DNA from: an uncultured Nitrososphaerota archaeon | Lineage (GTDB): Archaea > Thermoproteota > EX4484-205 > JAAOZO01 | DNA: 64,000 bases | Direction: 5' to 3' | NCBI GenBank assembly: GCA_964408285.1 | Contig: CAYOYV010000008.1 | Span: 1-64,000, forward strand | Shown here: positions 72 to 54,103 of the stretch, piece by piece | Layout: each line of letters starts with the position of its first letter | Numbering within the stretch: position 1 is the first letter of the stretch | Notes under the pieces: generated by a model | Databases searched by the model: none | What the model saw: only the letters and a program-made list of their open reading frames with translations | Told to the model about the DNA's origin: nothing | Made by a program: the position numbers and the translations under genes

Positions 72-183
72 TGCGGTGGGCGGGAAATTCCGTCACATCA
101 ATGACTTTTGAACCCGCGTGGCGACCGCGCTGCTTTTTGTACAATGGCAGGGTCGTATCCTAACCAGTCTAGATTACCACCGC
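72..183 (-). tRNA. tRNA-Gly(GCC) with two introns (37/38: 128-144; 59/60: 86-106)
   Basis: Reverse strand GCGGTGG...CCACCGC-A acceptor stem; anticodon arm CGACC-CTGCCA|C-GGTCG; T arm GCGGG-TTCAAA|T-CCCGC; both insertions sit in BHB-like motifs (CTGC/GCAG; TTCA/GGAA). Confidence 0.92.
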
Positions 184-312
184 CGCACTTAATCGAAGGA
201 ATGAACTTTTTATCTCTTTCCGGCTCGCCTTGGAATTCTATATGTGCCGCAAATGCTAAAGAACAACAGTTTCATGTGCTACGGGACGGCCAAGTGTGAA
301 TATGAACGATAG

Positions 313-1380
313 GTGACAGTCATGGACAAAGTCGAAAGAGTCTATCGGGCGTTGAGCATTCAGGAACCTGATAAGCTTCCGAAGGGAGAGCTACAAATAC
401 ATGATGAACTAGTCTCTGCACTTCTAGGAGAGCCCATCCAAGAGTCGTTCGAGGCCCATGTCAAAGTCCGCAACCTGCTTAACATCGACATAGTGAACCT
501 TGGATTGGAAGGTGGGCCAGAAACAAAGCGAATAGGAACAACGATTGAGGGCTACCCCATGTATCGAGATTGGATCGGGAATGAATGGGTGGAAAGTGGA
601 AAGACAAGACGCTATATGAAGACCGCCTTTTCCTCAGAGGAAGATCTAGAGCGTTTCGAGGAACCGGACATATCTTTGTTTCGGACCTCGGCCATTAAAC
701 AGTGGTCAGAAAAGACCGACTTCTGCGTGTTCGCTCAAGTCGGTGGTGTATTCGACTCGATCTACCCGTTGATGGGCCTGAACAACTATGTGAAAGCGCT
801 CTATCAGTACCCAAATGCCCTCATCCACCTAATCGAGGAAGTCCACAAATTCAACCTGCAGGTAATAAGACTGTATTCTGAGGCCGGGGCGCACGTGATA
901 CTGGTTGGAGACGATATCGCCTATGACAGCGGTCCATTCATTTCACCACAGGATCTCAGGAAGTATGTTTTTCCATATCTAGCAGGGGAGGCGGAGGCTG
1001 CTCATCGTTTAAAGCTCCCTGCAATATTACACTCGGACGGCAACATTACATTGCTGATGGACGACATAATCGAAGCCGGGTTCAATGGCCTGCATAGTCT
1101 TCAGCCAAGCTCAGGGGTGGATATAGTGAAGATCAAGAAGCACTGGGGACAACGAATATGTTTGATGGGCAACGTGGATCTGGATTCTCTGTTGACGCTG
1201 GGAAGGCCCGAGGAAGTGGAAGCAGAAGTAAAGCGGCTCATACAGGAGGTAGCCCCGGGTGGAGGCTACATTCTAAGTACCACGAACGTCCTTACAAGAT
1301 ATACCCCACCCGAAAACGCCTTGGCCATGTACAGAACCGCAGAGAAATACGGAAGATATCCAGTCAAGATTCAACAATAA
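313..1380 (+). CDS. Uroporphyrinogen decarboxylase family / MtaA-CmuA-like (MT2) methyltransferase
   Basis: GDDIAY...GPFISP, LHSDGN, CLMGNVD, GGGYILS motifs typical of the URO-D/MT2 TIM barrel. Confidence 0.8.
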   Translation: MTVMDKVERVYRALSIQEPDKLPKGELQIHDELVSALLGEPIQESFEAHVKVRNLLNIDIVNLGLEGGPETKRIGTTIEGYPMYRDWIGNEWVESGKTRRYMKTAFSSEEDLERFEEPDISLFRTSAIKQWSEKTDFCVFAQVGGVFDSIYPLMGLNNYVKALYQYPNALIHLIEEVHKFNLQVIRLYSEAGAHVILVGDDIAYDSGPFISPQDLRKYVFPYLAGEAEAAHRLKLPAILHSDGNITLLMDDIIEAGFNGLHSLQPSSGVDIVKIKKHWGQRICLMGNVDLDSLLTLGRPEEVEAEVKRLIQEVAPGGGYILSTTNVLTRYTPPENALAMYRTAEKYGRYPVKIQQ

Positions 1381-1445
1381 CAATGAATACAGAAAGTGAT
1401 GGTTCGCGAAAAGAAAATAAACCTCTTGAATCAATAGAATAACGC

Positions 1446-1533
1446 GGTCTGGTAGCTCAACCTGGGAGAGCGCTCGGCTGAAGGGACGAACGCCGAAACC
1501 GAGTTGTTGCTGGTTCAAATCCGGCCCAGACCA
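1446..1533 (+). tRNA. tRNA-Phe(GAA) with canonical 37/38 intron (1484-1497)
   Basis: GGTCTGG/CCAGACC acceptor stem, CTCGG-CTGAAG|A-CCGAG anticodon arm, GCTGG-TTCAAAT-CCGGC T arm. Confidence 0.93.
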
Positions 1534-1648
1534 CTTAAATCAATGTCTAAGGAAGAGCTACTTCCATCATAGATAGACTCCATGGCGTCATTGCATAGCA
1601 ATAAGATCTAATACCTAGTGTCCATAAGACCAGAAGGTTACGGGCGCT

Positions 1649-2068
1649 CTACTCCCACTGCTTCTTTACCCATTCTGCCACCCCGGCTCTTTGAATTTCC
1701 CTAAGGGTCTGCACCTTTTCTTCAGGGAAGGGCCATTTGCCCCATGTTTTGCATGGAAACTCTCCGCATTCGAAACAAAACGATATTCCCTTGTTCTCGC
1801 AGCGTTTCCTTACTGGGCAGTCCTTCCATCCGGAACCGGCTTTGCAGCAGTAAGCGCAGAACCCGGATTGTGAGAGCCATTCCAATCCGGCAACGAAATT
1901 GTCGGCATCGGCTTTCTCCATTATCCAACCCTTAAGCTCAGGGCGGGTCTTTATCAATCGTAGCAGCTGATCTGCTGGCTCCTTTATTCTTCCGGCATAC
2001 CAATCACATTTATGACAATATTCCCCGCAATAGCCCACAGCCTTTCTCCTCTCCTCCTCGTATTTCAT
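1649..2068 (-). CDS. Cys-rich DUF3795-like protein
   Basis: N-terminal CGxxCxxC, then CxxCK...C...C...CFECGEFPC. Confidence 0.7.
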   Translation of the reverse strand: MKYEEERRKAVGYCGEYCHKCDWYAGRIKEPADQLLRLIKTRPELKGWIMEKADADNFVAGLEWLSQSGFCAYCCKAGSGWKDCPVRKRCENKGISFCFECGEFPCKTWGKWPFPEEKVQTLREIQRAGVAEWVKKQWE

Positions 2069-2160
2069 TGGACCGTTTCCGGATTTTTGCAGGAAATTAT
2101 TATGTCTTGCTAACTGATGACGCCTAGCTCATGGCTCTATTCTCATGCTTCTGCAACGGT

Positions 2161-2850
2161 TCACATTGTCCTGATTATCTGTGGCACTTCCGTCAAGCTC
2201 CTCACCCTAATCGCGGACCTGTCGGCATTCTTGCCACTCCGATCAACTAGAATGGCCTTGAATCCTGACGCAGTCGCACCAAGATAGTCAGCGTCGAAGT
2301 CGTCGCCAATGTGCACTATTCTTCCCGGATCAACGCCGATTGCCCTCGATGCCCAGAGGAACAAGCCCTTGTTTGGTTTTTCGAATCCTACGGAGCCAGA
2401 CGCAGCGAGCAACGCGAAGTATGTGTTCAAATTCACTTTAGAGAGGTATGTTGAGAGGCTTTTCAATGAGGTCACATTTGATATTACAATAAGCCTGTAT
2501 CCCCTTCGCCGTAAATCCTCTATGGCCGGCTCCACGTCTTCATAAGCCTTCAATCCGGCTCTGTCGAGCCACAGTTCGTCGACGCGCTTGACTAAGTCCG
2601 GTGTACCCTCGATCTTCAAATACATAGCGACATGCTGTATATACTTCTCCAAGACGTTTGAATTCCATATAATGCCTTGTTTCTTTTGCTCTTTCCACCA
2701 ATCCTTGGCTTTCTGTATGGCTGATTCGACTTCATTGATGTCAACTTCGATACCCAATGTTTCGAAGATCTCGTGATATACAACGTATTCTTTCCTAGTT
2801 TCATAAACGAGGGTTCCTCCGAAATCAAAGGACACGATCTCTAGTGCCAT
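2161..2850 (-). CDS. HAD-superfamily hydrolase
   Basis: FDFGGTL motif I, ISN, EKP, HIGDD...D. Confidence 0.85.
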   Translation of the reverse strand: MALEIVSFDFGGTLVYETRKEYVVYHEIFETLGIEVDINEVESAIQKAKDWWKEQKKQGIIWNSNVLEKYIQHVAMYLKIEGTPDLVKRVDELWLDRAGLKAYEDVEPAIEDLRRRGYRLIVISNVTSLKSLSTYLSKVNLNTYFALLAASGSVGFEKPNKGLFLWASRAIGVDPGRIVHIGDDFDADYLGATASGFKAILVDRSGKNADRSAIRVRSLTEVPQIIRTM

Positions 2851-3210
2851 TCCGGCTTCCTACAGAGACGTCTCTTGATTATAGATTTGTTGGTAACGTG
2901 GTAAATCAGAAGGCCGCCTCGGATAATCGCGTAGAACTCCAAATCGCTTGATTAACAACCTCCTATTCCCTAACACGGCGCAGATCACATTGGGGAGAAC
3001 CTAGAGAACAAGAGAAAAGAAGCGGGCCTCTCCCATGAGAATGAGCGGCAATCGCGAAGGCGAATAGTGCCAAGAATTCTTGTAGCAAAGCACAATAACG
3101 CTTTTAAGTCAGTTGGGCGTCTGCCAGAGCGATCCGAGTCGGTGAAGCCTTATGTCGATTCTGAATTCACAACCCGCCTTCATTCCCTCTAATATCGAGG
3201 GGGACCATAT

Positions 3211-5673
3211 ATGAAAGTAGACTTTGGAAAAGTTGAGAAAAGGTGGCAGAAAAGATGGGAAAGAGCAAAGGCATTTCAGGTTAGGGAAGATCCCAAGAAG
3301 AAAAAACTATACGTCCTTGAAATGTATCCGTACCCTTCTGCAAGTTACCTCCACGTAGGGCATGTCAGAAACTACACAATAGGAGACGTGTATGCTCGGT
3401 TCAAGAGGATGCAAGGGCTTAACGTTCTTTATCCAATGGGATACGATTCATTTGGATTACCTGCGGAAACGGCCGCAAAGACGGAAGGGATCCACCCGAA
3501 GAAATATACTATAAAGGCTATCAAGAAAATCATGGAGTATCAAAAAGCCCTAGGAAACAGCTATGACTGGAGCAGGGTGATTGCCAGTCACGATCCAAAC
3601 TACTATAAGTGGAACCAATACTTCTTTCTAAAGCTATTCGAGAAAAACCTGGCGTACAGGAAAAAGGCACCCGTGAACTGGTGTGAGACCTGCACTTCGG
3701 TCCTAGCGAACGAGGAAGCAGCAGGCGGTAGGTGCTGGAGGTGTGAGGGAGAGGTGATCAAGAAAGAGACAGAGCAGTGGTTTCTCAAAATCACCGATTA
3801 CGCAGACAGACTGCTCGAGGACCTAGACAAGATAGACTGGCCAGAAAGGATAAAAGTGATGCAGAGAAACTGGATTGGAAAAAGCTACGGGACGGAGATC
3901 GATTTCAGAATAGGAGAGGAAACTTGGCCCATCTTCACAACCAGGCCGGATACGATTTATGGAGTCACCTTCATGGTCATCTCGGCTCAGCACCCAAGGC
4001 TCTTGAAGCTAACTGACGATGAGCACAAGAAAGAGGTAGAATCTTTTGTAAAGAGATGCCAGAAAGCAAGAACCGAAGAAGAAATAGAAAGTCTCGAGAA
4101 GGAAGGCGTCTTCATAGGAAGATATGCTACAAATCCGTTGTCAGGCGAAAAGGCTCCTGTCTACGCTGGCAATTTCGTCATTGCGGAATATGGAAGTGGC
4201 ATGGTTATGGGCGTTCCTGCCCACGACCAAAGGGACCTCGAATTCGCGAAGAAATACAACCTTCCCATCAAAGTCGTAATTCGGCCCAAGGACAGGCAAA
4301 TAGACGAAAAGAGCATGAAAGAAGCCTACGTTGAAGAGGGAGTTCTTGTCAATTCGGACAGATTTAGTGGAATCGGTAGTAAGATCGCAATCGATGAAAT
4401 CACGGCATACCTGCAAAGTAAGGGTCTCGGCAGAAAAGCCATCAACTACAAGATAAGAGACTGGATGATCTCGAGGCAGAGATATTGGGGAACGCCGATA
4501 CCGATCGTATACTGTGAAGAGTGCGGAATGGTGCCCGTTCCTGAAAAGGATCTGCCCGTCTTACTTCCTGAAAAGGTCCATTTTACATCGACTGGAAATC
4601 CCCTATCGCATAACAAGAAGTTCCTCAACGTGAAGTGCCCCAAGTGCGGTGGGCTGGGGAGAAGAGAAACGGACACGATGGGTGGCTTCGTCGATTCCTC
4701 CTGGTATTTCTTGAGATATTGCGATAATAAGAACAAGAAGAGACCCTTTGCTCCAGCCAAAGTCAATTACTGGATGCCGGTGGATCAATATATCGGCGGC
4801 GCAGAGCATGCCGTGATGCATTTAATCTATGCCAGATTTTTCGCAAAAGCCCTCAAGGATCTAGGGTTCATCGATTTCGATGAGCCGTTTATGAGGCTGT
4901 TCAACCATGGCATAGTTCATAAGGGCGGAGTCAGAATGAGCAAGAGCAAGGGAAACGCTGTCTACCAGACGGTGATATCAAACAAGTATGGGACAGATAC
5001 GTTGAGGCTGTTCCTCATGTCGGTTGCCTCTCCTGATAAGCCAATGGAATGGAGCGACGAGGGAGTTGAGGGGAGCTTCAGGGTTGTCACCAAACTCGTA
5101 AGACTGAAGGACAAGATAGGCGCATCGGACAAAAGACAAGATAGCAAGATAAACGTCGCGATTAAGGAGGTCACCGAAAACATAGAGAGCTTTCAATATC
5201 CAAAGGCAATATCATCAATTATCGATTGCATCAATAACTTCTCAGAGCATGTTTCGAAAGACAATTACGGAACGTTGCTAAGATTACTCGCACCGTTTTG
5301 CCCACATATAGCCGAGGAGTTGTGGGAAGAAATTGGAAACAAGCGACTCATAAGCCTAGCAAGATGGCCTGTAGCAGATGAGAGTAAGATCGATGTGACG
5401 TTTGAAAAACAAGAAAAGGCAGTCGAGGAGCTTCTGAAGGACATAAACAACGTCGCCAAACTAATCAGGGAGAAGCAGAACAGGAAACCCAGAAACGTGT
5501 ACGTCTACGTCCTTCCTCAGGAAATTGACTTCTATGGAGGGGTATCTGCGCTGATGAAGAGAAGAACAGAACTCAACGTTCAATTCTTCGCTGTAAACGA
5601 CAAAATGCGATATGACCCTGAAAAAAGGGCCGCAAGGGCTAAACCAGGCAAGCCGGGGATCTACCTAGAATGA
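3211..5673 (+). CDS. leuS: Leucine--tRNA ligase (bacterial-type core, archaeal-type C-terminus)
   Basis: MYPYPSASYLHVGH (HIGH), GYDSFGLPAE, FTTRPDT editing domain, DWMISRQRYWGTPIP, GGAEHA, RMSKS (KMSKS). Confidence 0.96.
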   Translation: MKVDFGKVEKRWQKRWERAKAFQVREDPKKKKLYVLEMYPYPSASYLHVGHVRNYTIGDVYARFKRMQGLNVLYPMGYDSFGLPAETAAKTEGIHPKKYTIKAIKKIMEYQKALGNSYDWSRVIASHDPNYYKWNQYFFLKLFEKNLAYRKKAPVNWCETCTSVLANEEAAGGRCWRCEGEVIKKETEQWFLKITDYADRLLEDLDKIDWPERIKVMQRNWIGKSYGTEIDFRIGEETWPIFTTRPDTIYGVTFMVISAQHPRLLKLTDDEHKKEVESFVKRCQKARTEEEIESLEKEGVFIGRYATNPLSGEKAPVYAGNFVIAEYGSGMVMGVPAHDQRDLEFAKKYNLPIKVVIRPKDRQIDEKSMKEAYVEEGVLVNSDRFSGIGSKIAIDEITAYLQSKGLGRKAINYKIRDWMISRQRYWGTPIPIVYCEECGMVPVPEKDLPVLLPEKVHFTSTGNPLSHNKKFLNVKCPKCGGLGRRETDTMGGFVDSSWYFLRYCDNKNKKRPFAPAKVNYWMPVDQYIGGAEHAVMHLIYARFFAKALKDLGFIDFDEPFMRLFNHGIVHKGGVRMSKSKGNAVYQTVISNKYGTDTLRLFLMSVASPDKPMEWSDEGVEGSFRVVTKLVRLKDKIGASDKRQDSKINVAIKEVTENIESFQYPKAISSIIDCINNFSEHVSKDNYGTLLRLLAPFCPHIAEELWEEIGNKRLISLARWPVADESKIDVTFEKQEKAVEELLKDINNVAKLIREKQNRKPRNVYVYVLPQEIDFYGGVSALMKRRTELNVQFFAVNDKMRYDPEKRAARAKPGKPGIYLE

Positions 5674-5808
5674 TGGGGTGGCCCATTTTTATCCGCCGCT
5701 TCCAACTGGAGCTCCAAACAGGAGAAACCTTGAGAAAATAACAGGGCCCTGATACGCATGCGAATATACGGAACAGATTTTTTAACCCATTGGAGTCCAT
5801 GGTTTATC

Positions 5809-5911
5809 GGGCCCGTTGCCTAGAGCCAACAGTGGGCAATCAGGATAAGGCGTCGGCTTTCTAATCACCGAAAAGAGCCGGAGATCGAGGGTTCAAATCC
5901 CTCCGGGCCCG
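5809..5911 (+). tRNA. tRNA-Arg(TCT) with two introns (15/16: 5824-5839; 37/38: 5864-5875)
   Basis: GGGCCCG/CGGGCCC acceptor stem, GAGGG-TTCAAAT-CCCTC T arm; BHB central helices GCCT/GGGC and TTTC/GAAA. Confidence 0.92.
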
Positions 5912-6020
5912 CTTTAGTGACCTTTTTTACAAACCTCTTCTTGAGTGATGGCAGAAAACATATCTGGTGCAAGGTTCGCGATTTGGATGGGTATAGATCG
6001 ACTGTGTCAGGGGCATTTGA

Positions 6021-6992: not shown

Positions 6993-7083
6993 GGATGAAG
7001 CTGCCTCTACATGATCCTCGACAAGTAGCTCCTATCAAACTGATTTAAACCACGGAACTACTCTTCTTGGTGACTATCAAGGC

Positions 7084-13421: not shown

Positions 13422-13973
13422 TCAAATCAACCTCGATATAGAATAATAGACGACTTCGTTTCTTCTATCAATGACGCCGAGTACCAAAGTCTTTCTGTTG
13501 GACTGGGCTCTTTTCAATATACTAATCAAATCCTCAAACTCTATGGGGGAACCCTCAGACAGTCCAACGACCAAAAAGCTCGGCGTTTCGGTTGGAAAGC
13601 CGCCCTTGTTGTAAACGTTGAAGTCTACACCAAGCCCATAGCCCTCCCTCGCGACGTATCCTCTCGAACGGAGATCCCTCAAAATAAGATACCTGTTCCA
13701 GACGTTTCTGTCTGCCTTGGTTGCCTTCCTGAGTAATTGCTCGAAACCTATCTCGTCCCCCCCTCTAATCCCCACTTTGAGTTTGTTGCTCTCAATCAGG
13801 AACAGTGCCTCAGGAACTGAAAGAACTACCACCTTATCGCCAACTCCATATCCTCGCTCGTTAAGCCATTTTACTTGATTTTCTTCTCTAACCAGGATCT
13901 CATTGGCCCTTAATTTTCCATCTAGGTGGATCGCTTCCTCTTGAGGGCCCTCTGCCTGTTCCATGGCTTTCAT
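13422..13973 (-). CDS. endA: tRNA splicing endonuclease subunit, probably the structural (beta) subunit; start reassigned to 13973
   Basis: LSVPEALFL, RDLRSRGY..REGYGLGVDFNVY, RAQSNRK, VVYY; no His in the expected catalytic position. Confidence 0.85.
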   Translation of the reverse strand: MKAMEQAEGPQEEAIHLDGKLRANEILVREENQVKWLNERGYGVGDKVVVLSVPEALFLIESNKLKVGIRGGDEIGFEQLLRKATKADRNVWNRYLILRDLRSRGYVAREGYGLGVDFNVYNKGGFPTETPSFLVVGLSEGSPIEFEDLISILKRAQSNRKTLVLGVIDRRNEVVYYSISRLI

Positions 13974-14014
13974 GTCTTCCACCGCTTCATCTCTATAAAA
14001 ACGAATGGGGTCAA

Positions 14015-14764
14015 TCAGGGGAGTCGAAGCAATGAATAGTAGGGTATTGACTGTTCCTCTATTATGGCTCTCCATTTATTTCCGACGGAAACCATTGCGA
14101 ATAGGCCAATCACTTTGCCACCGGCCCTTTCTGCCAGTCTAACAAGTGCAGCGATTGTACCGCCAGTTCGAACGACATCGTCGACTATAAGCAAGCGGTC
14201 GTTTCTCCTTATTGCCTTCCTCGGGACGTAGAACGTCCTTACAATTGCCACATCTGTAGGGCTGTATGAATCCTCTATAAAGTCCTCTAAGCCAACTTCT
14301 TTTCTCTCCTTGGCGACCACAAGATCCGCGCCCAGTTCCTCACCAACCAAGCATGCTATTGGAACCCCATCGGCTGCGGCGGTCAAAACCTTGCTCGCGC
14401 CGTACTTCGAGAAATTCTCTGACACCTTAACTGCTACCAATCTAAGAAACGCGGTATCCCAAATCAACGGGGTTACGTCATAATATCCGCCCTTCGATGG
14501 CTTGATCCTTTCTTTAACCAGATCCTCGAATCTTATAGTCTTTTTCAAGGCGCTCAATATCTCCTCGATCCTTTCGTCCGATGGTAACATCCTTCTTCTT
14601 GCATATCTCGATAATACGGACGGAGGAAGGCCCGTCATTTCCGAGAGTTCCCTATGTTTGTATTTCCTCTTCAATAGAGTCAGAAGGTCGATGACCATCA
14701 TCTTTCTCCTCAAAGTCTCAACTTTGTCACTTTGTGCCTCGCTTTTGAGGGGGACTTCAGACAT
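14015..14764 (-). CDS. HTH-phosphoribosyltransferase (PurR-like/APRT-like) protein
   Basis: N-terminal HTH (ELSEMTGLPPSVLSRY) plus PRPP motif IVDDVVRTGGT. Confidence 0.8.
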   Translation of the reverse strand: MSEVPLKSEAQSDKVETLRRKMMVIDLLTLLKRKYKHRELSEMTGLPPSVLSRYARRRMLPSDERIEEILSALKKTIRFEDLVKERIKPSKGGYYDVTPLIWDTAFLRLVAVKVSENFSKYGASKVLTAAADGVPIACLVGEELGADLVVAKERKEVGLEDFIEDSYSPTDVAIVRTFYVPRKAIRRNDRLLIVDDVVRTGGTIAALVRLAERAGGKVIGLFAMVSVGNKWRAIIEEQSIPYYSLLRLP

Positions 14765-21594: not shown

Positions 21595-21704
21595 CGGGCC
21601 CGAGGGGACTGTCAAGGGTTGAGGCCTTTTTGAACCCCTGATTTGCAGCTTAGGAGGTTCAGCGCTTAAGCTCTGCTGCCTTATCCATACTAGGCCACGA
21701 GCCC
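21595..21704 (-). tRNA. tRNA-Arg(CCT) with two introns (30/31: 21658-21672; 59/60: 21609-21628)
   Basis: GGGCTCG/CGGGCCC acceptor stem; GCAG|C-CTCCTAA-GCTGC; AGGGG-TTCAAA|T-CCCCT; BHB helices CAGC/GCTG and TTCA/TGAC. Confidence 0.9.
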
Positions 21705-22795: not shown

Positions 22796-22891
22796 TGCGG
22801 AGGGCGCGATTTGAACGCACGTAGGCCTTTGCCACGAGATCTTAAGTCTCGCGCAGCGACTCGCGCTTTTTCCAGACTCAGCAACCTCCGC
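22796..22891 (-). tRNA. tRNA-Leu(TAA) with 12-nt intron at 30/31 (22848-22859)
   Basis: GCGGAGG/CCTCCGC acceptor stem, CGAG|A-CTTAAGA-TCTCG, long variable arm, BHB helix CGCG/CGCG. Confidence 0.9.
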
Positions 22892-36230: not shown

Positions 36231-37036
36231 TTACCCAAGGTATTCCGGGCTCTCCGGTCCCTTGAGGAAGGCAGAGAGCGACTTATCACTTTCCAATTTC
36301 TTCAGTTCCTTTCTGTATTTATCCTGCAGTTCCTTCCACTTCTGGGCTTCAGATTCAAATGACGAAAAATCTAGATTGGCATTGAGAAATGTATCTAGCT
36401 TTTCAAGGACTTGGCGTGAGCTTTCTAGTTCAGGTCCGCCTAGACTTGCTAGCCCGAGCAGACCTATACCCTTTATGCCAAGCAGCCTGCACAATCCCAA
36501 GGTTATGCCGACTGACCCAACGATTGGTGTACCTATTGGAGCCATTTCCAGACCCAAGGACTTGAGGTACTCTAGTCCTGATGGATCAGCGGCCAAAGCG
36601 AATATCCTATTTTCTGCTTTAGGTTGCTCAATGTGGCCTCCAATGGCTATTACCAAGTCTCCCCCGATGCTTTTGAAGAATTTCAACAGTATTCTACTAG
36701 CCTCGAACTCACCTCCCATTAATTCCTGGTGCTGTTCGCCGAGCGCGATAATCAGGTCTCCCTCCTTCCTATTCTTTAGGAAAATCTGGACGCCCAGAAG
36801 TCTGGTCCTTCCTTTCTTGTCCACGACTGCCTGCGTGCTGAAGTAGGGAGATGTGATCATTCCGATTCTTTGAGCTTTGAAACTCTTTATCAGGAATCTA
36901 ACTACTATTTCGCCAATGCGTCCTATCCCGGGGTAGCCTATTACTAAGATTGGTTTTGAAACCGCCCATCCTTTGCTGATCCAAAGCTTCGGATTAGTGA
37001 AATAGTAGACACTCGGTTCGATCCTTCCTGCTAACA
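36231..37036 (-). CDS. PAC2 family proteasome assembly chaperone (start approximate)
   Basis: ILVIGYPGIGRIG, IGG, PIVGSVG, GIGLLG, C-terminal YLG. Confidence 0.8.
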
Positions 37037-43527: not shown

Positions 43528-43538
43528 CTGTTATCTGG

Positions 43539-45183: not shown

Positions 45184-45189
45184 GATACC

Positions 45190-46247: not shown

Positions 46248-46303
46248 AACCGGGGCCTCTTATTTAGTTTTATTATACCCCAAACCAAGCATCTGGACAA
46301 AAT

Positions 46304-47014: not shown

Positions 47015-47043
47015 GCCTCGAGCCAATATTCCCTCCATCCAAA

Positions 47044-48165
47044 GTGGTAACTAATCTTCCTCCAAATGCGCAAGCGCAGTACAAGAGAGTAGTGGCATCG
47101 AAATCGAAGATGGAAAGACTCCAAAACCTACAGATCTTCATCTCGATGATCCCGGAACATAAGGGTACCCAGAAACTGAGGGCAAACGTCAAGAGACAGA
47201 TTAGCAGACTAGAGGAGGAGATAGGAAAGGAAAAATCTAGAAAAAGGCAAGTTGGGCATCAAAAGTCGCTCTCATTCTCGAGGAAGGAGGACGAACTGCT
47301 GTTGTTGCTATTGTACGGCAGTCCAGAGATCAAGGGGGCGTTTCTTTCAAAGATGTCGGATCTATCTCCAGAATCATTCTATACCGAAGGAGTGAGACCA
47401 TATTCAAGGAGAATAGGGGGCGTCAACACGATTTTTCTTCCGATAGGCTATTCGCTGGCCGCAAATCCAGATCGAATCGACCTCGCTAGACAAACTGATG
47501 GCGCCATTTTCCTGATTTCCTCAGAGGGTGAAATAGAGAGCAGTCAGTCCTTGATCGATTCATTCAGGAAGTTCAATGTCTTCTTTCTCATGCCGGGATC
47601 GGAGGTGAAGATTATGCCCTCTGCTACTGCAGGTACGAACGTGATAGGAAATTCGCGCTTTCTTAGCAGGGAGGACGTTGCGAATCACGTGCTGGGGTCT
47701 AATCTTGTCGGAGCGACGATTGTGATTTCCGAGTTCTCAACAATCTACTCTTTGGATGCCGCCATTGAGAAGAAAGCGCATTTGCTGAGGTATTGGTTCC
47801 TTCTTGATGATAGCCTTTATGGCAAATATGACGGAAAAACAATCTTATTGCGGGATTCAATACCGGCTGGAACAAGGTCACTATCAGAAGCAGTGGAGAA
47901 CCCCACGAGCCTTCTTCTCGACGTTCTCAGTGGAATCGGAAAAATCAGGGTTTGGACAAAGGAACCGGGCGAAAAGTCAGTATCAAGGGAACCCGTGTTG
48001 TTGAGAGAGGGAGCGACTATCTTGGATCTTGCAAAGGCAATCCATGGGGAGTTAGCGATGGAATTCAGCCACGCGATACTATACAGGCCCTCAGAAAAAA
48101 TAAAACAGATGAGGGTTGGATCAAGATTTCAGTTGAAAGATGGCGACACGGTGGAGGTTCACTGA
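47044..48165 (+). CDS. DRG/OBG-like TGS-domain protein with degenerate G domain
   Basis: MVTNLPP...IPEHKGTQKL N-terminus and TGS C-terminus (IRVWTKEPG...IHGEL...LKDGDTVEVH); no GxxxxGKS or DxPG. Confidence 0.75.
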   Translation: MVTNLPPNAQAQYKRVVASKSKMERLQNLQIFISMIPEHKGTQKLRANVKRQISRLEEEIGKEKSRKRQVGHQKSLSFSRKEDELLLLLLYGSPEIKGAFLSKMSDLSPESFYTEGVRPYSRRIGGVNTIFLPIGYSLAANPDRIDLARQTDGAIFLISSEGEIESSQSLIDSFRKFNVFFLMPGSEVKIMPSATAGTNVIGNSRFLSREDVANHVLGSNLVGATIVISEFSTIYSLDAAIEKKAHLLRYWFLLDDSLYGKYDGKTILLRDSIPAGTRSLSEAVENPTSLLLDVLSGIGKIRVWTKEPGEKSVSREPVLLREGATILDLAKAIHGELAMEFSHAILYRPSEKIKQMRVGSRFQLKDGDTVEVH

Positions 48166-48192
48166 GAATGTCGGAAGACATAATCATGGATT

Positions 48193-49023
48193 CTAGTGAT
48201 GGTGCGTTTCTGAGAGTAGATAAGGCATCTGCTTGGCCAACCTATTGAGGTCGCCCGGTTCGATTTGGAAGACTCTGGTCTCGAGGAGCTTTTGACCTAG
48301 ATCGCTTCCCTTAAAGAGGGAATCTAGACGGGCAAGTCTCAATGCTTTGCCAAACTTCTTTCTTCTGTACTTGAACAATTCTCTGGTAAGGTCTTCCAGG
48401 TGTCTGATCTCGGAGTCTTCGAGTTTGGGTTCTATCGGTCGGAACGTCAGAGCTGAGACACCTGTCTTGGGGGCTGGATAGAATGATGTCTTACTAAAGA
48501 TGGCAAGTTCCTCCACATGAAAAATCAATTGAGCTATGACGGACAATCGCCCATAGTGCCTGGTACCGGCTCTAGCCAGCAATCTCTTTGCGAATTGCTC
48601 TTGAAACGTAAGCACAGCAATGCTTGGTCTTTCGTGGATTAACTTCAACACAATCTTCGAGGATATGTTGAAAGGAGGATTCGAAACACACTTGTCGTAT
48701 TCTAGCGGCCCGATTCTCAGATAGTCTCCAGCCATTATTTGCACATTGGATGGGCCGGAAAACTTGCGACGCAGGAATTCAGCCAATCTTGGATCTTTTT
48801 CGACCACTATGAATCGTCGAGGCTTTTCCGCAAGGATTTGCTCGGAGAGCGTTCCAAGCCCTCCCCCGATTTCCAGCACTACGTCTTCGGTTGAGATATA
48901 GGAGGCTTTCACTATACTCTGCAGGAGAGTCTCATCGATTGCGAAATGCTGCCCCTTTCTTTTTTCGGGTTTGAGCCGCAACTGCCTAAGGCTCGTCAGT
49001 GTCCTCTGAAGTAATCCGTTCAT
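48193..49023 (-). CDS. rsmA: 16S rRNA dimethyladenosine transferase KsgA/Dim1
   Basis: GQHF, LEIGGGLG, NPPF, YGRLSV, FYPAPK. Confidence 0.93.
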   Translation of the reverse strand: MNGLLQRTLTSLRQLRLKPEKRKGQHFAIDETLLQSIVKASYISTEDVVLEIGGGLGTLSEQILAEKPRRFIVVEKDPRLAEFLRRKFSGPSNVQIMAGDYLRIGPLEYDKCVSNPPFNISSKIVLKLIHERPSIAVLTFQEQFAKRLLARAGTRHYGRLSVIAQLIFHVEELAIFSKTSFYPAPKTGVSALTFRPIEPKLEDSEIRHLEDLTRELFKYRRKKFGKALRLARLDSLFKGSDLGQKLLETRVFQIEPGDLNRLAKQMPYLLSETHHH

Positions 49024-49025
49024 TA

Positions 49026-49604
49026 TTATCTTACAAAAAGCCTGTATTTCTGTGGAGTTGAAAGCTCCTCTATTATCCTGTCCGTGATTATCCTGCCCAG
49101 ACCAGTGATCGCTGTCCTCTTCTCGAAATCCTCGAATGATTTGAAGGGAGCCTTCTCTCTTTCTTCAAGTATCCTTCTTGTTGTCGTTTTGCCGACCCCG
49201 GGCAGCAATTCAAAGGCATGCAACCTAGGAGTCAGGAGTCCAAAGAAGTTGATCATGCTGAGGAATCTCGGTTCGTTTTCTTTCGTTGTCGCCTCTACTA
49301 CCTTGGGCAGATTGTCCTTTGCATCCTGCGTTAGGTCTTCGTAGCCAATCCTGCCTAGTATGGTGATTACAATCGATCTGTCTCCTGATCCGACGTAGAC
49401 CCTCTCTCCAACGCTAAGTCGTCTTCCCTTCACAACGGTTATCTCCAACAACGAGAAGAAGGATTCGCCCAAACCCTGTATGTGGGGGGTTGGTTCTCTT
49501 CTCCAATGGCGCCTGGGTATCCCTGATTCAATGAAGTCCAAGACTCTAACGTAGTCTTCATAGTGCTTTGTCTCTGCTCTATGGAATGCCATGGCCCTTC
49601 CCAT
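49026..49604 (-). CDS. DUF655 nucleotide-binding protein
   Basis: VLDF, GESFFSLLE, TPRLHAFELLPGVGK, PFKSFED, KYRLF. Confidence 0.88.
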   Translation of the reverse strand: MGRAMAFHRAETKHYEDYVRVLDFIESGIPRRHWRREPTPHIQGLGESFFSLLEITVVKGRRLSVGERVYVGSGDRSIVITILGRIGYEDLTQDAKDNLPKVVEATTKENEPRFLSMINFFGLLTPRLHAFELLPGVGKTTTRRILEEREKAPFKSFEDFEKRTAITGLGRIITDRIIEELSTPQKYRLFVR

Positions 49605-49919
49605 TCTCCGTCTTGTCTATGTCAAAATCGGCGATGTGTCTTCACAGGACGCCTCAGAACCAAGAAAGCTTACTGCACTGCGCGTAATCATCACAACCAA
49701 CATAAGGCGGTCAGATGATGTTTTTAAGACTTTTGATTAAAGAAATGCCCACAATCAAAGTTATTATATGCAGGCTCGGAGTCTGGAATTGGGGCGACAG
49801 TGAAGAATAAAGGGTTACTCCTATGAAAAAATGAGATGAAGGCATTTGTCTGAGTCGGCCCCTCAACGATAATCTGTTGCGGAATTTGACAGGTGAATCA
49901 CGTGTCTTTTAATTTGGTA

Positions 49920-50035
49920 CGCCCCGGTCGGGCATGCCGAAAACGCCTTTGGCGTTCTTTTCGAATTCTCGAGCTTCCGCTTCCCGAGTCTGCCGGGTGA
50001 CAGCCGGCAATGTTAACCTGTTGCACCACCGGGGC
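49920..50035 (-). tRNA. tRNA-Asp(GTC) with two T-arm introns (53/54: 49966-49982; 59/60: 49934-49959)
   Basis: GCCCCGG/CCGGGGC acceptor stem, GCCGG-CTGTCAC-CCGGC, TCGGG|TTCGAA|G-CCCGA; BHB helices CTCG/CGAG and TTCG/CGGC. Confidence 0.9.
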
Positions 50036-50170
50036 TCAAATATCAGCGCTCGCTTTGATTTTATTTAAACTTGTTTGCCATTGTCTAACTCGGGATCTAA
50101 GCAAAGTCACACCAATACAGCGTTGGCAAAGCTAGTACTCATCAGTTCCCAATTACCCTATACTCAAGGT

Positions 50171-51004
50171 TCATGCTGCTTTCTTTTTTGGCTTGTGTTT
50201 GATTAGAACTACTTCTTTGTCTACGAGCCTCAAGATGCCTTGAGGCGTGAAAGCCGTTCCTCGCACCCCTTCCAACCACGCCTTAACATCGTTGAATATC
50301 TTCTTGTCCTTTTCGGGATCGCCAGTGTTAGGGGGCCATTCTGCCACTAACAAGGCTGGTCTGCCTATTCGACCACGCCTTCCAGGGACTCGGATGTCTG
50401 TTTTGAGGAGGGCACGTCTTTCAGCAGAATATTCTGCTCTATAGCCAATCCAGGAATCGAATTTGTGCCCCGCCTCGCCAACTCCTTTGAATCTCACGTC
50501 GATTGCGTTTAGTATTTCCTCGTCGCTCATGTTTCTCGCATCAAACTTAATTCCGAAGTCTATGTAGAAAGAGTGAGCCTTGGTAACAACTTCGTCAAGG
50601 GGAAGCCCATATTTCTTGACAGCCTCATTCATTGCATCGCAAACTATTTCATAGTCCCTCACTATAGCTGGGATGATGTTCTCAAGTCTTTTCCTCATGT
50701 CAGAATTGATTAACCTGTCAATGTCTTCAGGTAGCATATGAATGTGGTAACTATCTTGGAGTATATGGTTCATATTGGGACTTGTACGGATTATTTCTAT
50801 GAATCCCTCGTGGACAGACAGGATGGGATAGGCATAACAAGAAGAATAAAGTTGGGATTCATTAGTTGCGGGTGGATGCCTTAAACCCCAATCCAGCCTG
50901 TCGTGATCCCACCATACCTCATATTGACAACCGCTTATCGTCTCGATTAGATTCTCGGTTTTTCTGGCGAGACTGTGAGCAGATGCCATCAATACTATTT
51001 TCAC
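50171..51004 (-). CDS. Hypothetical protein (third gene of the TGT-like/nuclease cassette)
   Basis: 277-aa ORF starting 12 bp after the upstream stop, with SD-like GGGTG; no recognised motif. Confidence 0.6.
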   Translation of the reverse strand: MKIVLMASAHSLARKTENLIETISGCQYEVWWDHDRLDWGLRHPPATNESQLYSSCYAYPILSVHEGFIEIIRTSPNMNHILQDSYHIHMLPEDIDRLINSDMRKRLENIIPAIVRDYEIVCDAMNEAVKKYGLPLDEVVTKAHSFYIDFGIKFDARNMSDEEILNAIDVRFKGVGEAGHKFDSWIGYRAEYSAERRALLKTDIRVPGRRGRIGRPALLVAEWPPNTGDPEKDKKIFNDVKAWLEGVRGTAFTPQGILRLVDKEVVLIKHKPKKKAA

Positions 51005-51016
51005 CCACTTGAGGAT

Positions 51017-52288
51017 TTAAGCTACACCCTTGTTGGGAAAATATCGTGGTATGCCAGTATCCTTGTCAATCTTGATCCACCCATCCAGCCTACGTGTGAA
51101 TTCTCCACTCTGCGGGTTAAACAACACAATTACTATCGTTCCTTCGTAAAGTCTGGGCAATCCCTTCCTAGCGTCGTCAGACATCGCGTTCCACTCTTTC
51201 AACCGTTTGGGAAATTCCAAGATCGCGTCATAGCGGGCGTCTCTGTATGATTTTTCACTTGTCCTGAGCTTTACTTCCTCCACGACAAACTTCCTGTTCT
51301 CATCGAAATACGATGCGTCAAAGAAATATCTAATGCCTCTATTCATGTCATTGCCACCGGACAAGTCATAAGCAATATCCTTTACCCCTGACTTTTTCAG
51401 GACTGCGCATTCGATCTCGGTCCCGAGGATGCCCTTCTTGGTGAAATCCGCGTAAGGGTACCAGTTTATTCCGGCATAGGAATCACGGTCAATGACGCCC
51501 TCAACTCTCTCGAGAGACATCTTGAAGAAACCTATCTTGAGGTGCTCGTAGTATTCGAAGGGAGGAGCTCTGAGCCAGTTTCTTCTCTTATATGGGGTCT
51601 CTTTAAGATATGTGATGGTGAGGAGTGCTTTCCCCGGGTCATATTCGACTCCTTGGACTCTCTTGAATCCTGGAGTCTTAACGCCTAAGAAAGCATCACC
51701 ATGTCCATTATAAGCGATCTTCAAGAAGGTTTCCTTGCCTTGATAGTCCTTTATACTGAAAACCAAAGCCGGTGCATTTACTTGTCCGTTGTTCCAACGC
51801 AACTCGTCTATCCAAGCGACAGGTATAGAGTTGCCCTCAATCACTAGCAACCCGCTATTGCCAGACCGATCAATGATAAGCTCGAACGGTAATTTCCCCG
51901 TTTTAGTTGAACTCGATAAGAATTCGGATCGGCTCAACTCTCTTACGGTGGCTTCGATTCCTTGACCCTTTTGTTGCAGTCTGCTTGGAACGATCGGACC
52001 ATATAACCCTCTAAGTGGATTATAGACCGAATAGATGTTCACTCCCTTAACACTTATCACGGCAAGGCAATGTTCATTGCCAAAGCAGTCCTTGATTTTT
52101 TGCACTTCTGCCCTATCCGTTATGAGGAGGTGCCAGCGTCCTTCACGGTCTATATCGATGGTGCTTCTTATCTGAATACCATGGTAATCGGCGCCGCCTT
52201 CGGGACATTCAGATCTTGGCTCGCCTTGCACGAGTTGACCCTGCCCGAACCTTTCGGCGAACTGCCTAACTCGTTTCCCGGCACCCAT
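51017..52288 (-). CDS. Hypothetical protein with C-terminal PD-(D/E)XK nuclease-like domain; start reassigned to 52288
   Basis: KGILGTEI...LKKSG...FDASY...FVVEEVK pattern. Confidence 0.55.
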   Translation of the reverse strand: MGAGKRVRQFAERFGQGQLVQGEPRSECPEGGADYHGIQIRSTIDIDREGRWHLLITDRAEVQKIKDCFGNEHCLAVISVKGVNIYSVYNPLRGLYGPIVPSRLQQKGQGIEATVRELSRSEFLSSSTKTGKLPFELIIDRSGNSGLLVIEGNSIPVAWIDELRWNNGQVNAPALVFSIKDYQGKETFLKIAYNGHGDAFLGVKTPGFKRVQGVEYDPGKALLTITYLKETPYKRRNWLRAPPFEYYEHLKIGFFKMSLERVEGVIDRDSYAGINWYPYADFTKKGILGTEIECAVLKKSGVKDIAYDLSGGNDMNRGIRYFFDASYFDENRKFVVEEVKLRTSEKSYRDARYDAILEFPKRLKEWNAMSDDARKGLPRLYEGTIVIVLFNPQSGEFTRRLDGWIKIDKDTGIPRYFPNKGVA

Positions 52289-52289
52289 C

Positions 52290-53386
52290 TTACCAGGCCC
52301 CCAATTCCTTTTGCATTTCGAGAAGGTTATGCAACGCAAGAATTTCCACGCGTTTCTCCGCTTCTCTCAGATCCTCAGGTCTTAACCCATTACATGCAGG
52401 ACATGGCAACTCTCGAATCTGACTCTCGGGTCGACGAGGTCATAGGGTGAGCCATCCTTGTAATAGCCGTCCTGCTTCGCCTCTAGGAACCAAGACAGAC
52501 TGGAGTAAGTCAACTCCTTGCGACTTGTACACCTGTACGACCTCCCGTGTATCACCAGCTCCGCGTCTGGTTTCGTTTCCTCGAATGCTTGAACCGTTGC
52601 TGCGAGCATGACCCTGAGGCTGTCATCTTTTTCCCTAGATAGCTCTCGTGCGGGCAAGACGAAGGATCTGTACCCCATCTCAATCTGTTTTTGAATCGTC
52701 CAATAGGCCTGGTTCCAGAAGACCCCCTTGCATAGACCTAACACCGGAATATCAAGACGGAGGAAAGCGTTGGCGTTATTGACGAGTCTAATGGTCTGAG
52801 ACCACGACAGATACAGTGGGTCATCGTCATAGGTATAGTTATCGGGCACAGTTGCCACATCGGGTCTCAATTCGCGAACTATTCTGAGATAATCTCCCGA
52901 ATCAAACCTGTCTAGGAACTCGTCGGGCATTATGCCAGAGAGGATGATCCGACCTTCAAAGCCCAGGTAATCATGAAGGCCTCTTCTGGAAACTTCTTGG
53001 AGAAGCGTTCGCCCTGCTAATATTTGCCCGAGATTAACTATGACTGTGCGCAATTCAATCTTCTTCCAAAACCAAGATCTTTCGTCTGTGATTTCGATAA
53101 TTGGTATGAACCCCGGCAAACCAATTTTGTTCATGCTCTTTGTTGTCGTCTCAAGCATTCGCTCGGGCGGCGGTCTCGGCTTCCGACCAATGGGACACCA
53201 GGACCTCAGGTCGCAGGAAGGATATGGATACGTTATCCCGGTGTAAGACCTTCCTTCGATGCATTCGGCGATCAGACACGTCCTACCCGGCGTGCAACCT
53301 ACACAAGCGTTTTGAAAATAGACGCAACGCGAGCACTCAACTCCGCATCTTCCCCTCTGCCCTTGGTGAGGTGTGAACTTTGTCAC
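52290..53386 (-). pseudogene. TGT-fold/DUF4417-like protein with Cys-rich N-terminus; frameshifted near 52404 (pseudogene, sequencing error or recoding)
   Basis: GLHDYLGFEGRI, PDVATVPDNY, IHG, SSLSW; the -1 frame continues C-PCPAC...LALHNL...W* and ends 1 nt before the next ATG. Confidence 0.6.
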
Positions 53387-53737
53387 GGCTCTGCAAAAAC
53401 CACCCCAGTTCAGTTCCCTGTCATCTAGCCCGTCTTCTCATCTCCATGAAGCCGTTCACTTCACCTAGGTTCCTCACTGAAGCCAAATCAATAGTAAACC
53501 TCCCAACGCTGAGGACGCAAGTATCTATATAAACGAAAATGAGCATAACTACCGCTATTGGACCGAATTTCTAGAAACGAAACAGAACAACAGGAAACAT
53601 CAGATCATAAGCTCAGATGGAGACCAACCCATTAGACTGAATCTCCGATCGACTGTAGCAACTTGTTCCTTTATGAAGAGTTCAGAGCCATTTGATGTAA
53701 AGACTTATTAGAATAGGGAATTCGATGGATTGCTGGT

Positions 53738-53893
53738 CCCGCTGTAGCTCAACCTGGTAGAGCTTCCGAGCCCGAATGGGCGGAGACGCTGTAGATTTCG
53801 GCCTCGGGCCGAATCGTCCAGCCTACTAGGCTAAAACCGAAACCGGACTGTTGCTGGTTCAAATGGTCTGTCCTGGAAGTCCAGCCGGCGGGA
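53738..53893 (+). tRNA. tRNA-Tyr(GTA) with three introns (30/31: 53769-53787; 37/38: 53795-53841; 59/60: 53864-53879)
   Basis: CCCGCTG/CGGCGGG acceptor stem (C1:G72), TCCG|G-CTGTAG|A-CCGGA, GCTGG-TTCAAA|T-CCAGC; BHB motifs. Confidence 0.9.
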
Positions 53894-53943
53894 CCTTAAT
53901 CAACTGACAATTCTTAAGTAGATGCAGCGCCGAACCCAAAGCA

Positions 53944-54103
53944 GGGCCCGTAGCTCAGCATGGTAGAGACAAGTGTCAGCACCAAAAGCGCCGGTGACCG
54001 TTGTCGGCGATGCTTTTAACCCGGGTGTCACGGGGTTACCCCGCACTACTCGGGTCCAAGACTGATTCGGCTGCGAAACGCTGTGGAAGTCCCGACGGGC
54101 CCG
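53944..54103 (+). tRNA. tRNA-Lys(TTT) with four introns (22/23: 53967-53986; 30/31: 53995-54011; 48/49: 54030-54049; 59/60: 54061-54089)
   Basis: The 160-nt gene collapses to a 74-nt cloverleaf after removing 20+17+20+29 nt; each junction has a BHB central helix (TGGT/ACCA, CGCC/GGCG, GGTG/CACT, TCCA/TGGA). Confidence 0.85.

What the first reader, a model, noticed from the sequence alone, without database searches (positions are those of the whole stretch)
72..54103. Every tRNA in the window is intron-split: 17 introns in 8 genes, with hotspots at 30/31 and 59/60
Seen: Gly 2, Phe 1, Arg-TCT 2, Arg-CCT 2, Leu 1, Asp 2, Tyr 3, Lys 4. Only 4 of the 17 introns are at the canonical 37/38 site. Position 59/60 is used five times (Gly, Arg-CCT, Asp, Tyr, Lys) and 30/31 four times (Arg-CCT, Leu, Tyr, Lys); 15/16, 22/23, 48/49 and 53/54 occur once each. 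Intron sequences differ, but each 3' part is complementary to its own exon, so the BHB is tailored per gene. Inference: a lineage with extreme tRNA disruption outside Thermoproteales (RpoA is fused here). T-loop introns fall in the 3' half commonly used as attB by viral integrases, consistent with the hypothesis that introns block integration.
Basis: partly seen in the sequence, partly recalled or inferred. Interest (0 to 1): 0.78.

Follow-up and report, generated by a model that had tools for sequence, protein, structure and literature searches.

The report
Eight heavily intron-split archaeal tRNA genes
All eight tRNA genes in this stretch of an uncultured sediment archaeon are broken up by 17 short introns of the protein-spliced archaeal kind, and the whole genome and its relatives are the same, adding one more lineage to the few known with almost every tRNA gene interrupted.

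Summary
Standard tools see one or two of the eight genes.

The window is typical of its genome. I resolved 41 tRNA genes with 66 introns; 37 of 41 are interrupted, two carry four introns, and 49 of 66 introns are non-canonical. A reversed-genome decoy gave no passing locus.

Alignments with relatives show clean presence/absence of introns at 22/23, 30/31, 53/54 and 59/60, independently of the splice motif. The genome encodes a two-subunit EndA of the broad-specificity crenarchaeal type (one subunit lies in the window) and RtcB ligase.

The organism belongs to a small class of Thermoproteota with a fused RpoA. It is not Thermoproteales, and all four families sampled have interrupted tRNA genes.

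Comparable or higher densities are already published for Thermoproteales and for some Asgard archaea, so this is a new member of a known kind. The idea that the introns block virus integration is untested. The 59/60 hotspot is more simply explained because the T arm supplies the same outer helix as the anticodon arm does at 37/38.

The parts
72..183 (-). tRNA-Gly(GCC) gene, 2 introns: 144..128 at 37/38 (17 nt) and 106..86 at 59/60 (21 nt). Base 72 is the discriminator.
   Evidence: The spliced product is a 73-nt cloverleaf with all stems paired, and ARAGORN accepts it. Central helix 4/4 and 3/4.
1446..1533 (+). tRNA-Phe(GAA) gene, 1 canonical intron 1484..1497 (14 nt).
   Evidence: (Rfam 54.4 bits). 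The central helix is only 2/4, the weakest splice motif of the 17.
5809..5911 (+). tRNA-Arg(TCT) gene, 2 introns: 5824..5839 at 15/16 (16 nt) and 5864..5875 at 37/38 (12 nt).
   Evidence: (partial Rfam hit, 23.2 bits). Both central helices 4/4.
21595..21704 (-). tRNA-Arg(CCT) gene, 2 introns: 21672..21658 at 30/31 (15 nt) and 21628..21609 at 59/60 (20 nt).
   Evidence: Central helices 4/4 and 3/4.
22796..22891 (-). tRNA-Leu(TAA) gene (class II), 1 intron 22859..22848 at 30/31 (12 nt).
   Evidence: (Rfam 37.2 bits). Central helix 4/4. ARAGORN mis-placed the intron and mis-read the anticodon.
49920..50035 (-). tRNA-Asp(GTC) gene, 2 introns: 49982..49966 at 53/54 (17 nt) and 49959..49934 at 59/60 (26 nt), leaving a 6-nt middle exon.
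   Evidence: Central helices 4/4 and 3/4. The second motif only forms in the context left by removing or looping out the first intron.
53738..53893 (+). tRNA-Tyr(GTA) gene, 3 introns: 53769..53787 at 30/31 (19 nt), 53795..53841 at 37/38 (47 nt) and 53864..53879 at 59/60 (16 nt).
   Evidence: Alignment A2: the 30/31 intron is cleanly absent in G003 and the 59/60 intron cleanly absent in G006. G002 has an extra intron at 53/54.
53944..54103 (+). tRNA-Lys(TTT) gene, 4 introns: 53967..53986 at 22/23 (20 nt), 53995..54011 at 30/31 (17 nt), 54030..54049 at 48/49 (20 nt) and 54061..54089 at 59/60 (29 nt).
   Evidence: all four central helices 4/4. Alignment A1: the 22/23 insertion is a clean 20-column gap in G002 and G006, and the 30/31 intron is shared by all three.
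13422..14075 (-). Second paralogue of the tRNA-splicing endonuclease EndA (217-aa ORF). It is probably the structural (beta) subunit of a two-subunit enzyme.
   Evidence: PF01974 hit, 67.6 bits. In the PDB alignment to 1a79, the position I take from recall to be the catalytic histidine is not His. The catalytic-type partner lies on contig C4.

Best explanation
These are functional tRNA genes interrupted by archaeal protein-spliced (bulge-helix-bulge, BHB) introns.

How it works. Each precursor folds so that four exon bases just upstream of the 5' splice site pair with four bases near the 3' end of its own intron. That places both splice sites in 3-nt bulges. A heterotetrameric alpha2-beta2 EndA of the broad-specificity crenarchaeal type cuts there, and RtcB joins the exons. 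Where introns lie close together, as in Asp, the motifs can only form one after another.

Where it occurs. The condition is not special to the window. It holds for about 90% of the genome's tRNA genes, at about 1.6 introns per gene, and for every family sampled in the organism's class.

History. Introns have been gained and lost repeatedly among close relatives. There are no related intron families, so copy-and-paste transposition of the Thermoproteales kind is not indicated.

Hotspots (inferred). Introns sit where the mature tRNA itself supplies the outer helix. Position 59/60 lies between the sixth and seventh base of a 7-nt loop closed by a 5-bp stem, exactly as 37/38 does in the anticodon arm.

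Shown: gene structures, motif register, enzyme genes, comparative presence/absence. Inferred: actual splicing, splicing order, and the cause of the hotspots.
For: Gene structures:
- Eight of eight window genes splice to cloverleaves with 20-21 of 21 stem pairs.
- All 41 spliced genome sequences are accepted as tRNAs by ARAGORN.
- They cover 40 different anticodons with only one duplicate, so these are the working copies.

Specificity of the search:
- On the reversed genome, 0 loci pass the score >=20 and >=13 G-C pair thresholds. The second pass covered 60 of 138 chunks and found none, against 29 in the real genome.

Splice motif:
- The central helix is 4/4 in 52 of 66 introns, against 0-3 of 66 when the partner is slid by 1-4 bases.
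- The 17 canonical introns were not filtered on the motif. They still show 4/4 in 8, 3/4 in 7 and 2/4 in 2.
- All 12 introns at 59/60 have a 5-bp outer helix, which is the T stem. The 37/38 introns have 5-7 bp, apart from Cys with 3.

Motif-free support:
- Clean intron-sized gaps in relatives at 22/23, 30/31, 53/54 and 59/60.

Enzymes:
- Two EndA paralogues.
- The C4 copy aligns end to end with crenarchaeal subunits 2cv8 and 3p1z_B (E 2e-45 and 3e-43). The alignment includes the loop region after the N-terminal strand and the Tyr/His/Lys positions (my reading of the residues is from recall).
- The window copy lacks the His.
- RtcB scores 560.7 bits.

Lineage:
- Rfam-detectable tRNAs number 18 in G000; 9-28 in its family, the 9 coming from a 57%-complete genome; 5-6 in family f3; 18-39 in f4; and 42-44 in three near-complete outgroups.
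- 14 of 15 tRNA genes resolved in 11 relatives' loci and 16 of 18 in 26 f3 loci have called introns, up to four per gene.
Against: - There is no RNA evidence, so splicing is inferred.
- Non-canonical introns were accepted only if the central helix had at least 3 of 4 pairs. The motif statistics for them are therefore partly circular; the slid control and the canonical subset soften this but do not remove it.
- Only 14 of 66 introns meet a strict form with the central helix plus at least 2 bp on both sides. One window intron (Phe) has a poor motif.
- Two genome genes are uncertain. Lys-CTT needs a 4-nt micro-exon whose first intron has a 3/4 helix and weak flanks. The gene at C15:14809-14951 could not be resolved.
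- Five anticodons were not found (Trp-CCA, Gly-CCC, Pro-TGG, Thr-GGT, one CAT). The per-gene figure is therefore an estimate, probably a low one.
- The hotspot explanation is an argument from geometry. It does not explain 30/31.
Confidence: 0.85

Rival explanations
1. The T-loop and other 3'-half introns are kept by selection because they break the attB sequences that viral or plasmid integrases use.
For: The hypothesis is in print (PMC4090602, passages read). 17 of the 66 introns lie between 53/54 and 59/60. G000 has no PF00589 recombinase hit.
Against: - Nothing here links introns to integration.
- 18 of 30 relatives, with similarly interrupted tRNA genes, do carry PF00589 recombinases, up to six per genome.
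- No tRNA gene lies within about 1.5 kb of the four integrase genes inspected.
- The review itself notes that other tRNA genes remain usable as attB.
- The geometry of 59/60 gives a simpler reason for the hotspot.
- Metagenome bins tend to lose integrated elements, so the blank in G000 means little.
Confidence: 0.1
2. Some of the inserts are not introns but insertions kept in the mature tRNA (enlarged D or variable loops), or the genes are decaying pseudogenes.
For: There is no RNA evidence. Several inserts have only relaxed motifs. Four tRNAs have an odd T loop with C at position 55, and one has A at 54.
Against: - The inserts interrupt stems and the T loop, where they would destroy the fold.
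- Each interrupted gene is the only copy found for its anticodon; the single duplicated anticodon, Leu-TAA, is interrupted in both copies.
- After removal, the stems are perfect.
- The helix register is sharply specific.
- The exons are conserved across families while the inserts come and go.
Confidence: 0.04
3. [quoted passage not shown]
For: The density is similar to Thermoproteales, and the same positions are used in different tRNAs.
Against: No pair among the 66 introns (2145 pairs) scores above shuffled sequences: best score 9, against a shuffled mean maximum of 10.2 and a range of 8-16. Introns of 9-47 nt leave little signal, so old copying events cannot be excluded.
Confidence: 0.05

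Closest known systems
Multiple-intron tRNA genes of Thermoproteales (Pyrobaculum, Caldivirga, Thermofilum and others)
   Same: BHB introns at canonical and many non-canonical positions, several per gene. The same alpha2-beta2 EndA type. The density matches the record genome: 71 introns in 46 genes in P. calidifontis, against an order mean of 0.84 per gene (PMC8450103, passages read).
   Different: A different class, with a fused RpoA and a different place in the RpoA tree. DNA of this organism occurs in sediment, wastewater and soil runs rather than hot springs (DNA runs only). There are no recurrent intron families. Two genes have four introns, where that paper states up to three.
[quoted passage not shown]
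   Same: About 90% or more of tRNA genes interrupted, mostly at non-canonical positions, with over half of genes carrying several introns. T-arm and anticodon-loop concentrations. Repeated gains without intron families. Wetland or sediment habitats (PMC11291895 and preprint 10.64898/2026.10.13.758758, passages read).
   Different: A different phylum. Here the mean is about 1.6 per gene with a maximum of four resolved, against 2.2 and up to five in the preprint.
Caldiarchaeum subterraneum (Aigarchaeota) tRNA genes
   Same: A neighbouring deep lineage in the RpoA tree, with introns in the D, variable and T arms and some multi-intron genes (PMC3293823, passages read).
   Different: Only 13 of 45 genes are interrupted and three carry several introns there, against 37 of 41 and 21 of 41 here.

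Membership tests
Archaeal BHB (endonuclease-spliced) tRNA introns | The insert lies inside a tRNA gene whose exons rejoin into a canonical cloverleaf. | tested here: met
   8 of 8 window genes and 41 of 41 genome genes. The decoy gave 0 loci.
Archaeal BHB (endonuclease-spliced) tRNA introns | A 4-bp central helix flanked by two 3-nt bulges that hold the splice sites, in fixed register. | tested here: met
   Window: 12 of 17 perfect, 4 with 3/4, 1 with 2/4. Genome: 52 of 66 perfect, against 0-3 of 66 when slid. Only 14 of 66 are of the strict form with both flanking helices; the rest are relaxed forms.
Archaeal BHB (endonuclease-spliced) tRNA introns | The genome encodes a splicing endonuclease able to cut non-canonical sites (alpha2-beta2 or epsilon2 type), and an RtcB ligase. 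| tested here: met
   Two PF01974 paralogues: one like the crenarchaeal catalytic subunit, one without the His. RtcB is present. The subunit assembly itself is inferred.
Archaeal BHB (endonuclease-spliced) tRNA introns | The insert is removed from the precursor RNA. | not testable with these tools
   No RNA run is listed for this DNA.
Transposing intron families of the Thermoproteales type | Related intron sequences recur in different tRNA types of one genome. | tested here: not met
   Best local score 9 among 2145 pairs, not above shuffles.
Split or permuted tRNA genes | tRNA halves encoded at separate loci or in permuted order. | not tested
   All eight window genes are collinear. Five anticodons not found in G000 could be split, permuted, more heavily interrupted or unassembled.
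Order Thermoproteales (as host lineage) | RpoA split into A' and A'' genes (recalled as the crenarchaeal state), and placement among Thermoprotei. | tested here: not met
   One 1273-aa ORF with Rpb1 domains 1-5. In the RpoA tree it lies in an unresolved fork with Bathyarchaeia and Aigarchaeota-type rows. The tree held no usable Thermoprotei row, so the placement is by exclusion.

The most novel reading that the evidence does not exclude
This small, mostly sediment-dwelling class of Thermoproteota is a third, independent radiation of near-total tRNA gene interruption. One of its families (f3) shows only 5-6 Rfam-detectable tRNA genes in genomes of 2.0-2.4 Mb, and may be at least as fragmented as the most extreme Asgard lineages, possibly with split genes. 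Recurrent C at T-loop position 55 in essential single-copy tRNAs hints that tRNA maturation in the class departs from the universal pattern. That could mean editing, or loss of the position-55 pseudouridine contact.
Probability: 0.25. Interest if true: 0.65.

Novelty: new member of a known kind. Interest (0 to 1): 0.45.

Why it matters
**Annotation.** Genome annotation of this class is badly incomplete for tRNAs. Standard models find 18 of at least 42 genes in G000, which will distort completeness and codon-usage inferences.

**Evolution.** A further lineage with about 90% interrupted tRNA genes is an independent replicate for asking how and why such introns accumulate. It lies outside both Thermoproteales and Asgard and seems to live in ordinary sediments. 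Like Asgard and unlike Thermoproteales, it shows no intron families. It also shows gains and losses between genomes of one family, and those can be dated on a tree.

**Hotspots.** The 59/60 hotspot with an invariant 5-bp outer helix supports the view that spliceability decides where introns persist.

Tried and rejected
**Search versions that failed or were superseded**
- The first finder, using genomic context only, missed Asp and Lys. Asp needs the spliced context for its second motif. The Lys 22/23 intron has no flanking helix.
One seed scheme was too slow and was stopped after 15 of 138 chunks. A relaxed scan of ten regions mostly hit its time limit and yielded only Gln-CTG.
- ARAGORN's Thr-TGT at C3:73915 and its Gln with a 1514-nt intron on C26 look spurious and were dropped, as was the Rfam fragment at C11:32131.
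- I dropped two finder loci before the census. C1:127550 is an overlapping alternative of Val-CAC. C15:14809 is the unresolved gene; brute-force enumeration of its anticodon loop gave 446 solutions, the best needing a 2-nt micro-exon and reading Pro-CGG.
- I also dropped three alternative start sites of genes already counted.

**Naming the lineage**
Its best hits were only 52-53% identical.
- The RpoA tree used 71 of 80 loci. Nine whose longest ORF was under 1100 aa were left out, among them the only Thermoprotei row.
- No mcrA was found in 26 genomes of the class, so it is not the methanogenic class of the phylum.

**RNA evidence**
- No RNA holder is listed.

**Integration idea**
- Searches gave nothing decisive.

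**Print searches for four or more introns per archaeal tRNA gene**
- Searches found only the red-alga paper and the Asgard papers.
- Supplementary tables of all papers were closed. They may hold per-genome intron counts that bear on novelty.

- Searches were rejected for a slash in a search term and were repeated.


Full report
**Observation**

Standard tools see almost nothing in the window.
- ARAGORN finds one odd tRNA.
- Rfam finds one tRNA at its gathering score (Phe, 54.4 bits) and a partial Arg-TCT hit at E<=10.
- Over the whole 1.82-Mb genome, which is 93.7% complete, ARAGORN with introns allowed makes 21 calls, several of them dubious. Rfam finds 18 at E<=0.001, 17 of them above the cut-off.

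I read the intergenic stretches and wrote a depth-first cloverleaf matcher. It may jump over a candidate intron wherever a bulge-helix-bulge register is possible, and over any insert after position 37.

The positions are 37/38 in Gly, Phe, Arg-TCT and Tyr; 59/60 in Gly, Arg-CCT, Asp, Tyr and Lys; 30/31 in Arg-CCT, Leu, Tyr and Lys; 15/16 in Arg-TCT; 22/23 and 48/49 in Lys; and 53/54 in Asp. No other credible tRNA gene turned up in the window.

**Is it more than chance?**

- On the reversed (not complemented) genome, the same pipeline gave no locus reaching score >=20 with >=13 G-C stem pairs. The second pass found none in 60 of 138 decoy chunks, against 29 in the real genome.
- The central helix of the splice motif is perfect in 12 of 17 window introns and 52 of 66 genome introns. 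When the intron-side partner is slid by 1 to 4 bases, 0-3 of 66 are perfect, and the mean number of pairs falls from 3.76 to 1.3-1.8.
- Non-canonical jumps required at least 3 of 4 pairs, so part of this contrast is built in. The 17 canonical introns were not filtered on the motif, and they still show 4/4 in eight, 3/4 in seven and 2/4 in two.

The best independent evidence is comparative.
- Lys-TTT: the 22/23 intron of G000 is a clean 20-column gap in two relatives. The 30/31 intron is shared and recognisably similar in all three.
- Tyr: the 30/31 intron is cleanly missing in G003 and the 59/60 intron cleanly missing in G006. G002 has an extra intron at 53/54. The 47-53-nt canonical intron is present in all four genomes.

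**The genome as a whole**

I combined three search passes, five genes read by hand (three of them re-found by the third pass, two kept by coordinates) and checks by coordinates.

| Measure | Result |
|---|---|
| tRNA genes resolved | 41, all accepted by ARAGORN after splicing |
| Different anticodons | 40 |
| Introns | 66 (9-47 nt, median 17) |
| Genes with no intron | 4 |
| Genes with 1 / 2 / 3 / 4 introns | 16 / 15 / 4 / 2 (Lys-TTT and Ile-GAT have four) |
| Introns at 37/38 | 17 |
| Introns at 59/60 | 12 |
| Introns at 30/31 | 7 |
| Introns at 15/16 and at 22/23 | 4 each |
| Other positions, from 6/7 to 58/59 | 1 or 2 each |

Forty-nine of the 66 introns are non-canonical. One further gene (C15:14809-14951) has at least three inserts, but its anticodon loop could not be resolved. 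The T loop of Lys-CTT needs a 4-nt micro-exon and is uncertain. Trp-CCA, Gly-CCC, Pro-TGG, Thr-GGT and one CAT gene were not found. So the window, at 2.1 introns per gene, is a somewhat rich sample of a genome that averages about 1.6.

**Machinery**

The genome has two EndA paralogues.
- The copy on C4 aligns over its whole length with the catalytic subunits of the crenarchaeal heterotetramers (2cv8, 3p1z_B). It keeps the Tyr, His and Lys that I recall as the catalytic triad.
- The copy inside the window (13422-14075, minus strand) lacks the His. I read it as the structural subunit.
- RtcB is present.

According to the abstract of PMC5829648 (search listing) and the review PMC4090602 (passages), this enzyme type cuts non-canonical and relaxed motifs.

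**Lineage**

- RpoA is one ORF with all five Rpb1 domains.
- In a FastTree of 72 RpoA rows, the window sits on a long lone branch in an unresolved fork with Bathyarchaeia, an Aigarchaeota-type group and one long hot-spring row. No supported set holds it.
- In the held collection, every other genome of its class at 85% completeness or more (17) belongs to the same order.
- No mcrA was found in the class, but one same-phylum outgroup has it.
- DNA of the region occurs in sediment, freshwater sediment, wastewater and soil runs.
- I could not name the class.

Rfam-detectable tRNA counts form a gradient:

| Group | Rfam-detectable tRNAs |
|---|---|
| G000 | 18 |
| Its family | 9-28 (the 9 from a 57%-complete genome) |
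| Family f2 | 28 |
| Family f4 | 18-39 |
| Family f3 (77-82% complete) | 5-6 |
| Three near-complete outgroups | 42-44 |

My finder, run on relatives' loci, found introns in 14 of 15 genes and in 16 of 18 f3 genes, up to four per gene. Some class I genes were left with 10-20-nt 'variable loops' that are probably further introns.

**Mechanism and hotspots**

All 12 introns at 59/60 have the 5-bp T stem as outer helix, and T-loop bases 54-57 form the exon half of the central helix. This is the mirror of 37/38 in the anticodon arm. I infer that such sites need the least from a newly arrived insert, which accounts for the hotspot without invoking viruses.

The introns share no sequence families. 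In that they resemble the Asgard case and differ from Thermoproteales, as described in the preprint's passages.

The integration-blocking idea remains untested.

**What is known**

- tRNAscan-SE 2.0 (PMC8450103, passages) states up to three introns per archaeal tRNA gene, a Thermoproteales mean of 0.84 per gene, and 71 introns in 46 genes for the record genome.
- Valentin-Alvarado et al. 2024 (PMC11291895, passage) report 92-95% of tRNA genes interrupted in three Asgard genomes.
- A 2026 preprint (10.64898/2026.10.13.758758, abstract and passages) reports 2.2 inserts per gene and up to five in one gene.
- Caldiarchaeum has 13 of 45 genes interrupted (PMC3293823, passages).

The kind is therefore known, and the density here is matched or exceeded elsewhere. 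What may be new is the lineage. My four print searches found no description of such tRNA genes in a Thermoproteota class other than Thermoprotei, Thaumarchaeota and Aigarchaeota. I could not search by the lineage's name or see supplements.

**Verdict**

- This is a new member of a known kind, of moderate interest.

Noticed in passing
window 54055-54060 and 54090 (T loop of Lys-TTT; C at 54056). Also G000 C1:123410 (Gly-TCC), C14:20619 (Asn), C14:25383 (Glu-TTC); relatives L103 and L113.: Four of 41 tRNAs in G000, all single-copy, have C instead of the universal U at T-loop position 55. Two tRNAs of a relative in family f3 do as well. The Lys-TTT orthologue in G002 has the normal U.
   Followed up: partly
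G000 C17:4805-4811: Thr-TGT has A at T-loop positions 54 and 60. I recall this combination from eukaryotic initiator tRNAs, not from elongators.
   Followed up: no
window 13422-14075 (-): An EndA paralogue without the catalytic histidine lies in the window. Its catalytic-type partner is on contig C4.
   Followed up: yes
window 57803-61624 (+): The RNA polymerase largest subunit is one 1273-aa ORF rather than two genes. RpoB (54425-57799) is also unsplit.
   Followed up: yes
window 53795-53841; alignment A2, about columns 58-119: The long canonical intron of tRNA-Tyr (47-53 nt) is present in all four genomes compared, across two families, and keeps a conserved hairpin-like stretch. No function was sought.
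   Followed up: no
G000 C15:14809-14951: A tRNA gene with a good acceptor stem, D arm and T arm and at least three inserts. Its anticodon loop cannot be rebuilt with ordinary introns. The best solution needs a 2-nt micro-exon and reads Pro-CGG.
   Followed up: partly
G000 C4:36647-36778: Lys-CTT has a 63-nt insertion in its T loop. It splices to a normal loop only through a 4-nt micro-exon (36733-36736). The first of the two introns has a weak motif.
   Followed up: partly
G007 and G009 (family f3), whole genomes: Only 5-6 tRNA genes reach E<=0.001 with the Rfam model in genomes of 2.0-2.4 Mb (77-82% complete). Nearly all hits are 85-117 nt long, which means they are interrupted.
   Followed up: partly
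G000 whole genome: There is no PF00589 tyrosine recombinase hit at all, not even a Xer-type one, although the same search rings in all 14 control genomes and in 18 of 30 relatives.
   Followed up: partly
G000 C14:4489-4472 (-): The 7-nt 5' acceptor strand of Gln-TTG is directly repeated 8 nt upstream of the gene. Both Gln genes carry an intron at 10/11.
   Followed up: no
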